This document shows, piece by piece, positions 1,599 to 2,251 of a stretch of 10,449 nucleotides of DNA; the first letter of the stretch is position 1; the number at the start of each line of letters is the position of its first letter. The translations under genes and the position numbers were made by a program. The stretch is from a virus: the UHGV virus genome UHGV-1344453; one strand, 5' to 3'. Under the pieces are notes generated by a model that was given only the letters and a program-made list of their open reading frames with translations, had not been told where the DNA came from and did no database searches.

Positions 1599-1844
1599 GT
1601 GACAACGAAGCACGCAAAAAAACCACATAACCGCGCCATTGACCTTACAGAGCACTGGCTGAGGGTGGCGATAAAAATCATCGACCGCAACGCGGGAGAA
1701 GGATACGCGAAAGCACATCCTGAACTAATAAGCGCATTCATGACCACAGCGGCGGCAAACTTTGCCACGCTGACAGAACGGGAGATTGCCGAAGCGGAAC
1801 AGGTAACAACCATCAACGTTAAAACCGGAGAGGTGGAATCATGA
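1599..1844 (+). CDS. Hypothetical small protein (~81 aa); start uncertain because the frame is open back into the N-run
   Basis: GTG at 1599 preceded by GAGG at 1587-1590. Stop TGA at 1842-1844 overlaps the ATG of the next gene (ATGA), suggesting translational coupling. No recognisable motif. Confidence 0.45.
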   Translation: MTTKHAKKPHNRAIDLTEHWLRVAIKIIDRNAGEGYAKAHPELISAFMTTAAANFATLTEREIAEAEQVTTINVKTGEVES

Positions 1845-2251
1845 CAGCACAGATAGCCGCTTACGGGCGGCTGGTGGCTGACCCGCAGTTAAAGACCACC
1901 AGCAAGGGCACACAAATGGCTATGGCAAGCATGGCGGTCCCCCTGCCGTGCAATCAGGCAGATGACGGACAGGCGACGATGTGGTTATCCGTCCTGGCGT
2001 TTGGCAGACAGGCCGACGCACTGGCAAAACACCACAAAGGCGAGCTGGTGAGCGTGGCGGGTAACATGCAGGTAAGCCAGTGGACAGGCCAGAACGGCGA
2101 AACGCGGCAGGGCTGGCAGGTTATTGCAGACAGCGTAATCAGTGCCAGAACGGCGCGACCTGGTGGGAGCCGACGCAAGACCACAGGCACACAGGGTAAT
2201 CAGCCACCAGCGGGAGGCGATGACCCTTACGGTGATGATATTCCGTTCTGA
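1841..2251 (+). CDS. ssb: Single-stranded DNA-binding protein (SSB), 136 aa
   Basis: RBS GGAGAGGTGG at 1828-1837. The N-terminal region aligns by eye to the OB fold of E. coli SSB. Gly/Pro/Gln-rich linker and the canonical acidic tail ending DDIPF. Confidence 0.85.
   Translation: MTAQIAAYGRLVADPQLKTTSKGTQMAMASMAVPLPCNQADDGQATMWLSVLAFGRQADALAKHHKGELVSVAGNMQVSQWTGQNGETRQGWQVIADSVISARTARPGGSRRKTTGTQGNQPPAGGDDPYGDDIPF

What the first reader, a model, noticed from the sequence alone, without database searches (positions are those of the whole stretch)
1841..2251. Satellite-encoded SSB with canonical DDIPF tail
This is a compact SSB (136 aa) that keeps the C-terminal acidic tip (DDIPF) used by host SSB to recruit partner proteins. 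An element-encoded SSB next to the replicon may support element replication, or compete with host SSB for its interaction partners.
Basis: partly seen in the sequence, partly recalled or inferred. Interest (0 to 1): 0.4.

Follow-up and report, generated by a model that had tools for sequence, protein, structure and literature searches.

The report
Phage-satellite copy of single-strand DNA-binding protein
The gene is a real single-stranded-DNA-binding protein carried by a capsid-forming phage satellite of E. coli, sitting beside the satellite's replication origin and ending in the same five residues as the host protein. It is already annotated as such in public genomes and is common, so it is ordinary although never studied experimentally.

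Summary
Window 1841-2251 (+) encodes a 136-aa protein ending in DDIPF.

It passes the curated SSB thresholds: Pfam PF00436 at 61 bits (cut-off 26) and TIGR00621 at 60.1 bits (cut-off 53.95). It models as an OB fold (residues 1-103) followed by a disordered tail.

The window is the right two-thirds of a capsid-forming PICI (cf-PICI) inserted next to thiM in E. coli. The order is D5-type primase, iteron origin (8 exact ACTGTTCACC copies), orf81, SSB, PerC, orf86, then capsid, protease, portal, connectors, HNH, TerS and TerL.

The identical protein is in RefSeq as "single-stranded DNA-binding protein". The gene matches DNA in 1783 of 5426 complete E. coli genomes. One paper already places SSB in the replication category of Gram-negative PICIs.

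What I add:
- This is a separate SSB lineage: 29% identical to host SSB, and it fails the host-type and plasmid-type models.
- It has no close relative in 50,697 phage genomes.
- It sits behind three different replicase types in int-alpA islands of Enterobacterales.
- It is present in 39 of 66 related cf-PICIs and absent from others with a near-identical primase.
- It is under purifying selection (dN/dS about 0.17), with swapped linkers but a retained acidic tip ending in Phe.

The most likely role is as an accessory replication helper that uses host SSB partners. Competition with host SSB is not excluded.

The parts
1..1310 (+). C-terminal two-thirds of the satellite's primase-helicase (D5_N / DUF5906 / Pox_D5, P4-family primase C-terminal domain). 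The gene runs off the left end of the window.
   Evidence: Pfam D5_N, DUF5906 and Pox_D5. PHROG 864 DNA primase, E=5.9e-150. TIGR01613 at 99.4 bits, below its 108.7 cut-off because the gene is truncated. The frame is open from base 3.
1311..1511 (.). Putative origin of replication. An AT-rich (35% GC) intergenic region holds 8 exact and 1 one-mismatch copies of the 10-mer ACTGTTCACC, in both orientations, at 1323-1501.
   Evidence: Repeat families D1-D3 and inverted repeats I1-I7. The 1-mismatch scan finds 11 matches in the whole window, 9 of them here; 0.56 are expected and 0 of 200 shuffles reach 11. GC 0.348. That PICI origins lie just 3' of pri-rep is established knowledge; the function of this one is inferred.
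1599..1844 (+). orf81, a small protein of unknown function. Its stop overlaps the ssb start (ATGA), so the two are probably translationally coupled. The 5' side adjoins a 44-nt masked N-run (1519-1562).
   Evidence: Coordinates by analogy with the 246-nt PGAP gene WP_000125507.1 in L001 and L131. PHROG 1231, unknown function, E=6.8e-49. No Pfam, NCBIfam, PADLOC or PDB match. A homologue lies directly upstream of ssb in 32 of 65 loci.
1841..2251 (+). ssb: a 136-aa single-stranded DNA-binding protein. OB domain 1-103, short basic linker 104-126, acidic tip 127-136 (DDPYGDDIPF).
   Evidence: Identical to P0001, named by NCBI 'single-stranded DNA-binding protein [Escherichia coli]' and seen on 577 contigs. 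Identical to WP_000126632.1 in E. coli IAI39.
2262..2519 (+). PerC-family regulator gene, 10 nt after the ssb stop. It is the usual downstream neighbour of this SSB.
   Evidence: Pfam PerC PF06069, E=7.4e-36. An 85-aa PerC gene follows ssb in L001, L038 and L039. PerC follows ssb in 34 of the 66 related cf-PICI loci.
2510..2770 (+). orf86, a conserved small protein of unknown function. It overlaps the PerC stop and is the last gene before the packaging module.
   Evidence: PHROG 1957, E=1e-24. No Pfam match. Homologues are also present in cf-PICIs that lack ssb.
3055..9409 (+). cf-PICI packaging module: HK97-type major capsid protein (3055-4224, with a 13-nt N-run), S78 prohead protease (4260-4835), portal (4837-6051), head closure (6048-6386), head-tail adaptor (6383-6679), HNH endonuclease (6679-7119), TerS (7408-7764), TerL (7748-9409).
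   Evidence: Pfam and PHROG hits. Same order and PGAP names in L001, L131 and L132.
9470..10449 (.). Chromosomal flank on the thiM side. The right end of the island lies at about 9470-9490.
   Evidence: Window 9400-10449 has a match in 5425 of 5426 E. coli genomes. In the listed genomes other than H65, which has a terminase gene under the match, the match starts at query base 70-90 and lies over thiM. An island with the same layout lies between rcnR and thiM in strain CEA106S.

Best explanation
The gene encodes a genuine bacterial-type SSB that belongs to the replication module of a capsid-forming phage-inducible chromosomal island (cf-PICI).

Proposed mechanism:
1. After the helper phage induces the island, ssb is co-expressed with the primase-helicase, orf81 and PerC.
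2. Its OB domain coats the single strands exposed when the primase-helicase opens the adjacent iteron origin and drives the fork.
3. Its C-terminal tip (DDPYGDDIPF) docks into the same pockets on host proteins that recognise host SSB (chi subunit of Pol III, PriA, DnaG, RecQ, ExoI and others). Satellite forks are thereby served by the host replisome when the host SSB pool is being drained by helper and satellite replication.

It is an accessory booster, not an obligatory partner of the replicase.

Shown: the SSB family and fold, the disordered tail, the conserved tip, the position next to the primase and iterons, purifying selection, and patchy presence.

Inferred: ssDNA binding, oligomeric state, tip-partner binding, co-transcription, and any effect on replication.
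For: Identity as an SSB.

ssDNA-stacking residues of E. coli SSB are kept: W54->W48, F60->F54, W88->W81.

Tail: residues 104-136 are predicted disordered. IPF ends 110 of the 120 closest cluster representatives. Among 85 intact genes from many genera, 78 end in Phe and nearly all of those have an acidic run just before it (DDIPF, DGIPF, DDEAPF, DDDF and similar), although the linker is replaced by unrelated cassettes.

Selection: median dN/dS 0.17.

Position: the gene lies directly downstream of the primase and an iteron cluster. It shares a 4-nt start/stop overlap with the upstream gene in 42 of 65 loci. The region shows no more promoter- or terminator-like sites than shuffled sequence.

The same slot is used in islands with three different replicases: D5_N/DUF5906, AAA_25 and DUF927. 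Across 34 species-representative loci, 28 have an integrase, 23 AlpA and 24 a DUF927-type hit, all co-oriented and upstream of ssb.

Accessory status: ssb is present in 39 of 66 portal-anchored cf-PICI loci. Eleven loci with an 87-97% identical primase lack it, and no substitute fills the slot.

The tip does not track replicase type. DDEAPF occurs with both D5 and DUF927 primases. This points to conserved host partners rather than the island's own replicase.

PMC10111431 already files SSB with Primase and DUF5906 under 'Replication' in Gram-negative PICIs.
Against: No experiment addresses this protein. The cf-PICI papers in the library never mention it.

Many cf-PICIs with the same primase do without it, so any replication benefit must be conditional.

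The linker is only about 23 residues, against 56 in E. coli SSB. Two positions important in the host protein differ in the alignment: W40 aligns with an invariant Cys37 in a shortened loop, and H55 with Leu49. DNA-binding mode and oligomer stability may therefore differ from the host protein.

In many E. coli alleles the third-from-last acidic residue is Gly or Asn (DGIPF, DNIPF), which may weaken partner binding.
Confidence: 0.6

Rival explanations
1. Tail mimicry for competition. The satellite SSB acts mainly by presenting a host-like tip that titrates host SSB-interacting proteins, or helper-phage proteins that use the SSB tail. This would bias replication and recombination resources away from helper or host and towards the satellite.
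For: The last five residues are identical to host SSB, while the rest of the protein is only 29% identical and has a much shorter linker. The gene is dispensable for cf-PICIs with the same primase, as expected for an interference or accessory gene. The lineage was found in satellite-type islands and not in 50,697 phage genomes. A phage SSB-like protein with an FDDDIPF tip has been proposed to perturb host ExoI/ssDNA metabolism (preprint).
Against: The OB domain is under purifying selection as strong as expected for a working DNA binder and keeps the stacking aromatics. A pure decoy would not need this. Tip variants with fewer acidic residues are common. No data show interference with any helper.
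Confidence: 0.15
2. Recombination or establishment helper. The SSB protects and processes satellite DNA at steps other than origin-driven replication, such as concatemer formation for cos packaging, recombination-dependent replication, or protection of incoming DNA ends before integration.
For: The SSB tip recruits RecQ, RecJ, RecO and ExoI in E. coli (established knowledge). The island packages by an HNH/TerS/TerL system that needs concatemers. The gene is independent of replicase type.
Against: The gene sits in the replication block, not the packaging block. It is equally present in islands without any packaging genes. No recombinase gene was seen next to it in the annotated loci I inspected.
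Confidence: 0.1
3. Defence or counter-defence role. The satellite SSB modulates host or rival anti-phage systems that sense SSB-like proteins or ssDNA. It would act as a decoy, or as a trigger that aborts infection by non-helper phages.
For: PICIs often carry defence cargo (established knowledge). A phage SSB-like protein with a host-like tip is reported as the trigger of DRT10. Presence is patchy, as for accessory genes.
Against: No match to any of the 5027 PADLOC models for SSB, orf81, PerC, orf86 or the primase. The gene lies in the conserved replication block, not in the variable cargo regions. It has no effector partner other than small unknown ORFs.
Confidence: 0.07
4. Decaying passenger. 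The gene is an inactive remnant with no current function.
For: About 6 of 92 family copies are truncated, for example in Shigella flexneri L035, Trabulsiella L012 and L119. Many cf-PICIs lack the gene.
Against: Of 92 copies, 85 are intact full-length ORFs. Median dN/dS is 0.17 and the maximum 0.40 over 1252 pairs. The N-terminus and tip are conserved across genera.
Confidence: 0.03

Closest known systems
E. coli chromosomal SSB (P0AGE0; NCBIfam PRK09010 type)
   Same: A single N-terminal OB domain, then a disordered linker and an acidic C-terminal tip. The last five residues (DDIPF) are identical. Equivalents of W54, F60 and W88 are kept. The solved E. coli chains are matched at E=1e-5 to 1e-6.
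   Different: Only 29% identity. It scores 24.5 bits against a 260-bit cut-off for the enterobacterial host-type model. The linker is about 23 residues and basic, against 56 residues rich in Gly, Gln and Pro. W40 aligns with Cys37 in a loop shorter by 3 residues, and H55 with Leu49. Encoded on a mobile island, not essential, and patchy.
SSB genes counted in the 'Replication' category of Gram-negative PICIs and helper-embedded PICIs (PMC10111431)
   Same: The same kind of element (int, AlpA, primase islands of Enterobacterales) and the same placement with Primase and DUF5906 near the origin. My loci show the same layout.
   Different: That paper only categorises the gene by Pfam family. It gives no analysis of the lineage, tail, linker cassettes, distribution or dispensability. 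The cf-PICI papers themselves do not mention it.
SSBs of conjugative plasmids (F-plasmid Ssb type; NCBIfam PRK13732)
   Same: An SSB encoded by a mobile element, with a host-like acidic tip, thought to supplement host SSB. From my own knowledge, F Ssb complements ssb-1.
   Different: It fails that model at 20.3 bits against a 265-bit cut-off. From my own knowledge, plasmid SSBs are about 175-180 aa, close in sequence to host SSB, and lie in the leading region expressed on ssDNA entry. This one is 136 aa, distant from host SSB, and lies behind a primase in a dsDNA-packaged satellite. Only a handful of plasmid records carry this lineage.
Phage-encoded SSBs of PHROG 44 (for example Staphylococcus, Streptococcus and Lactococcus siphophage SSBs; phage P1 Ssb)
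   Same: Same Pfam family. PHROG 44 is matched at E=6.7e-41. The nearest solved folds are Gram-positive SsbA and SsbB.
   Different: No phage genome among 50,697 has a relative above 36% identity, and Escherichia is not among the ten commonest organism names of the 159 matching records. This lineage is therefore not shared with sequenced phages of the same hosts.

Membership tests
Bacterial SSB family (Pfam PF00436 / TIGR00621) | Sequence match to the SSB OB-domain profile above the curated threshold | tested here: met
   PF00436 at 61 bits against 26. TIGR00621 at 60.1 bits against 53.95.
Bacterial SSB family (Pfam PF00436 / TIGR00621) | OB-fold three-dimensional structure | tested here: met
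   In the AlphaFold model, residues 1-103 form strands E2-11, E16-19, E25-36, E44-54, helix H55-62, and strands E69-82, E88-101, with block pLDDT 74-93. All top 50 Foldseek PDB hits are SSBs, with E down to 2e-9.
Bacterial SSB family (Pfam PF00436 / TIGR00621) | Disordered linker ending in an acidic tip with C-terminal Pro-Phe (SSB-Ct motif) | tested here: met
   Residues 104-136 have pLDDT below 50. The sequence ends DDPYGDDIPF. The tip is conserved in the family.
Bacterial SSB family (Pfam PF00436 / TIGR00621) | Binds ssDNA as a homotetramer (or dimer of two-OB chains) | not testable with these tools
   Only a monomer could be modelled. The stacking residues W48, F54 and W81 are present. The equivalent of H55 is Leu49.
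Host-type enterobacterial SSB (NCBIfam PRK09010) | Score above the family cut-off | tested here: not met
   24.5 bits against 260. 29% identity to E. coli SSB.
Conjugative-plasmid SSB (NCBIfam PRK13732) | Score above the family cut-off | tested here: not met
   20.3 bits against 265.
Capsid-forming PICI (cf-PICI), the element that carries the gene | Own capsid, prohead protease, portal, head-tail adaptor and connector, HNH, TerS and TerL genes | tested here: met
   All are present in order at 3055-9409.
Capsid-forming PICI (cf-PICI), the element that carries the gene | Integrase, AlpA-type regulator and primase-replicase on the left side | tested here: inconclusive
   The primase is present but cut by the window edge. 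The integrase and alpA lie outside the window. In close relatives with the same ssb, an integrase and an AlpA-family or HTH regulator are present.
Capsid-forming PICI (cf-PICI), the element that carries the gene | No tail, holin or lysis genes; size about 14 kb | tested here: met
   Chromosomal thiM-side sequence begins about 60-80 nt after the TerL stop. Related islands span about 14-15 kb between host genes and have no tail or lysis genes.
Capsid-forming PICI (cf-PICI), the element that carries the gene | Induction by a helper phage and transfer in its own small capsids with helper tails | not testable with these tools
   Shown experimentally only for EcCIEDL933 and a few others. A cf-PICI between pntB and mdtJI carries the 82%-identical allele P0015, which is indexed in 8909 blocks of the contig collection.

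The most novel reading that the evidence does not exclude
This SSB lineage may be specific to satellites. It is shuffled as a cassette among PICI-type islands of Enterobacterales and is absent from their phages. It is not needed for island replication as such. Its conserved host-like tip on a short linker could serve to capture the host SSB interactome (chi, PriA, ExoI, RecQ), or tail-binding proteins of the helper phage. That would make it a molecular-piracy or interference factor rather than a housekeeping replication protein.
Probability: 0.15. Interest if true: 0.55.

Novelty: already known. Interest (0 to 1): 0.2.

Why it matters
This matters little as a discovery. The exact protein is already named SSB in RefSeq, and it occurs in about a third of complete E. 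coli genomes.

Its value is as a tidy, untested question in satellite biology. Many PICI-type islands carry their own SSB with a host-like tail, while near-identical islands do without it.

A knockout in a model island whose gene map includes ssb would show whether satellites top up a limiting host factor or use tail mimicry against helper or host. I did not confirm ssb in EcCIEDL933 itself. The lineage could also serve as an extra marker gene for finding Gram-negative PICIs.

Tried and rejected
- **Origin from host or plasmid ssb.** I asked whether the gene is a recent copy of host ssb or a conjugative-plasmid ssb. Rejected: 29% identity to host SSB, and it fails PRK09010 and PRK13732 by more than 200 bits.
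- **Origin from helper-type phages.** Rejected: no relative above 36% identity in 50,697 phage genomes.
- **Partnership with one replicase.** Rejected: the gene follows D5_N/DUF5906, AAA_25 and DUF927 replicases. The same primase occurs with and without it.
- **Tip sequence tracking replicase type.** No correlation was seen.
- **A substitute in ssb-less cf-PICIs.** None found. Only orf86 homologues and short unmatched ORFs occupy the slot.
- **PADLOC defence models** for ssb and its neighbours: no hits.
- **Promoter and terminator scan of 1250-3150:** nothing above shuffled expectation, so the operon structure remains inferred.
- **tRNA scan** for an attachment site: none in the window.
- **orf81:** no Pfam, NCBIfam or PDB match.
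- **Charge of the OB domain:** similar pI to the host protein, so not informative.
- **Failed call:** the first Pfam call failed on a wrong frame for PerC and was repeated.
- **Source strain:** E. coli IAI39 has an identical ssb, but its island sits at roxA/phoQ, not thiM. It is not the source locus.

Full report
**1. Observation**

The ORF at 1841-2251 on the + strand is real and translates to 136 residues ending GGDDPYGDDIPF. A Shine-Dalgarno-like GGAGAGGTGG lies just upstream. The ATG overlaps the stop codon of the preceding small ORF as ATGA. The N-terminal MTAQI[AS]AYGRL is invariant in homologues from many genera, so the start is correctly placed.

**2. Is it an SSB?**

Yes, by every test available.
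- Pfam PF00436: E=1.3e-16, 61 bits against a gathering score of 26, covering residues 5-99.
- NCBIfam TIGR00621: 60.1 bits against 53.95.
- PHROG 44 (SSB): E=6.7e-41.
- Solved SSB chains from Thermus/Deinococcus-type two-OB proteins, an unnamed 153-aa SSB chain (1z9f), Staphylococcus, Bacillus and E. coli: E=5e-13 to 1e-5.
- AlphaFold model, built on 22 family sequences: a five-stranded barrel with one helix at residues 1-103 (block pLDDT 74-93), and residues 104-136 disordered.
- Foldseek against the PDB returns only SSBs among the top 50, with target-normalised TM about 0.8.

In an alignment with E. coli SSB (29% identity), the base-stacking residues W54, F60 and W88 correspond to W48, F54 and W81. 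W40 falls opposite an invariant Cys37 in a loop three residues shorter. H55 falls opposite Leu49. That part of the alignment is less certain.

The linker is about 23 residues and basic, against 56 residues in the host protein. Both tips carry four acidic residues.

**3. What carries it**

The window is the right two-thirds of a capsid-forming PICI. Upstream of ssb lies the C-terminal part of a D5_N/DUF5906/Pox_D5 primase-helicase that runs off the left edge. Next comes a 200-nt AT-rich gap (35% GC) with eight exact copies and one near copy of ACTGTTCACC in both orientations. The 1-mismatch scan finds 11 matches in the whole window, 9 of them in this gap. The shuffles give 0.56 on average, and none of 200 reaches 11. 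I read this gap as the island's iteron origin, by analogy with other PICIs whose origins lie just 3' of the replicase. That is inference.

Then follow orf81 (unknown function, PHROG 1231), ssb, a PerC-family gene 10 nt after the ssb stop (E=7.4e-36) and orf86 (PHROG 1957).

After a 285-nt gap comes the packaging block: HK97-type capsid, S78 protease, portal, head closure, adaptor, HNH, TerS and TerL.

About 60-80 nt after TerL the sequence becomes chromosomal. Window 9400-10449 has a match in 5425 of 5426 E. coli genomes, and in the listed ones the match begins at query base 70-90 and lies over thiM. A sister island with the same layout, including an integrase and an HTH regulator, lies between rcnR and thiM in strain CEA106S.

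**4. How ordinary it is**

The identical protein is P0001, named "single-stranded DNA-binding protein [Escherichia coli]" by NCBI and seen on 577 contigs. It is WP_000126632.1 in E. coli IAI39.

The same allele sits in cf-PICIs at two or more other attachment sites: roxA/phoQ and cspD/clpS for the identical allele, and gcd/hpt for a 99%-identical one. The ssb gene matches DNA in 1783 of 5426 complete E. coli genomes, with up to six places per genome.

An 82%-identical allele (P0015) is indexed in 8909 blocks of the contig collection, in a cf-PICI between pntB and mdtJI. I did not verify whether that island is EcCIEDL933.

In the literature held here, the cf-PICI papers never mention SSB. One paper on Gram-negative and helper-embedded PICIs lists "Primase, SSB and DUF5906" as the replication category. 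The annotation and the association with PICI replication modules are therefore already public. I found no functional work.

**5. What the comparison adds**

(a) *A lineage of its own.* It fails the host-type (24.5 against 260 bits) and plasmid-type (20.3 against 265 bits) SSB models. It has no relative above 36% identity in 50,697 phage genomes.

(b) *Context.* In one-genome-per-species data it appears in 34 loci, nearly all Enterobacterales. The gene lies 7-9.5 kb downstream of a co-oriented integrase in 28 of them. AlpA is found in 23 and a primase-helicase just upstream in nearly all. Only three have capsid genes. E. coli examples show it behind D5_N/DUF5906, AAA_25 and DUF927 replicases, often followed by a ProQ/FinO-domain gene and PerC. 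It is thus a cassette of PICI-type islands in general, not of cf-PICIs alone.

(c) *Accessory status.* Among the 80 best portal-anchored IMG/VR loci, which are a biased sample, 66 had enough upstream sequence to judge. Of these, 39 carry ssb. Eleven loci with an 87-97% identical primase lack it, and nothing replaces it in that slot.

(d) *Maintained by selection.* Of 92 copies, 85 are intact. Median dN/dS over the OB domain is 0.17.

(e) *Linker and tip.* The linker is exchanged as unrelated cassettes. Some E. coli alleles match only bases 1-326 of the 411-nt gene. The tip is kept: 78 of 85 intact copies end in Phe, nearly all of those preceded by acidic residues. E. coli alleles end D[DGNE]IPF. 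Other genera end DDEAPF, DDETPF, DDQIPF or DDDF. The tip does not follow replicase type.

**6. Mechanism**

The best-supported reading is an accessory replication protein. It would be co-expressed with the primase-helicase after induction, coat ssDNA at the adjacent origin and forks, and hand these over to host enzymes through a tip that fits the pockets recognising host SSB.

Three observations suggest that the relevant partners are conserved host proteins and that host SSB can substitute:
- independence from replicase type;
- conservation of the tip;
- dispensability in sister islands.

The gene would then pay off when SSB is limiting, for example during simultaneous helper and satellite replication.

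I give this about 0.6. The SSB identity itself is about 0.95.

The main rival, at about 0.15, is that the host-like tip on a divergent, short-linker body works chiefly by competition for host or helper tail-binding proteins. Strong purifying selection on the OB domain argues that DNA binding matters, but it does not exclude this reading. Recombination or establishment roles (0.1), defence-related roles (0.07; no PADLOC hit) and decay (0.03) are less likely.

**7. Verdict**

What it found is an already annotated, very common gene of a known satellite family. It is a new member of nothing. The open point is functional, not one of identity.

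Noticed in passing
window 1311-1511: A putative iteron origin lies between the primase stop and orf81. 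It is AT-rich (35% GC) and holds 8 exact and 1 one-mismatch copies of ACTGTTCACC in both orientations. The 1-mismatch scan finds 11 matches in the whole window, 9 of them here, against 0.56 expected.
   Followed up: partly
window 1599-1844: orf81 is a small protein of unknown function (PHROG 1231; no Pfam, NCBIfam or PDB match). Its stop overlaps the ssb start codon (ATGA). A homologue lies directly upstream of ssb in 32 of 65 loci. In the pntB/mdtJI type of island a different 101-107-aa ORF intervenes. It could be a partner of the SSB.
   Followed up: partly
window 2262-2519: A PerC-family regulator gene follows ssb after 10 nt (Pfam E=7.4e-36), with a weak ANR-family similarity. A PerC-like gene of another E. 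coli PICI is reported to silence LEE expression rather than activate it (PMC11773190).
   Followed up: no
window 2510-2770: orf86 (PHROG 1957, unknown function) overlaps the PerC stop. Unlike ssb, it is also retained in cf-PICIs that lack ssb, at 35-59% identity. It may be closer to core than ssb.
   Followed up: no
window 2771-3054: The 285-nt gap before the capsid gene holds several features: a weak hairpin plus T7 run at about 2778-2803; three copies of CGTGGTT[GA]TTC (2828, 2838, 2884); and a perfect 14-nt inverted repeat at 2926-2939 / 2951-2964. This may be a terminator followed by a regulatory or cos-type site for the packaging operon.
   Followed up: no
window 1519-1562 and 3760-3772: Two masked N-runs of 44 and 13 nt. 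The first hides the region just upstream of orf81. The second lies inside the capsid gene and splits it in ORF lists.
   Followed up: yes
window 9410-9490 compared with L001, L039 and L132: Related islands have a 93-aa ORF after TerL before the host flank. This island, and its rcnR/thiM sister L131, go almost directly from TerL into thiM-side chromosomal DNA.
   Followed up: partly
window 1841-2251 against the whole window: ssb is 60% GC against 52.5% for the window. Together with its distance from host and phage SSBs, this hints at an origin outside Escherichia.
   Followed up: no
phage record LR881103.1 (hit H21): A 16.5-kb record deposited as 'Escherichia phage vB_KppS-Ant' (an induced prophage) matches the primase, capsid and portal region at 77% identity. 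By size and content it looks like a cf-PICI rather than a phage.
   Followed up: no
L045 9463-9987; L048-L050 9467-9913: In non-capsid islands of E. coli, a ProQ/FinO-domain (RNA chaperone-like) gene lies between ssb and perC. These islands use AAA_25 or DUF927 replicases instead of the D5 type.
   Followed up: no
L017 (Chryseobacterium sp. 18061) and L030 (Sphingomonadales MAG): Two records named as non-enterobacterial organisms carry this otherwise Enterobacterales-restricted SSB, at 55% and 52% identity. The L017 context has a DUF927-type primase hit and an Ash-family hit like the enterobacterial islands, plus a weak (29%) integrase hit and no AlpA hit. Contamination or misassignment seems likely.
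   Followed up: no
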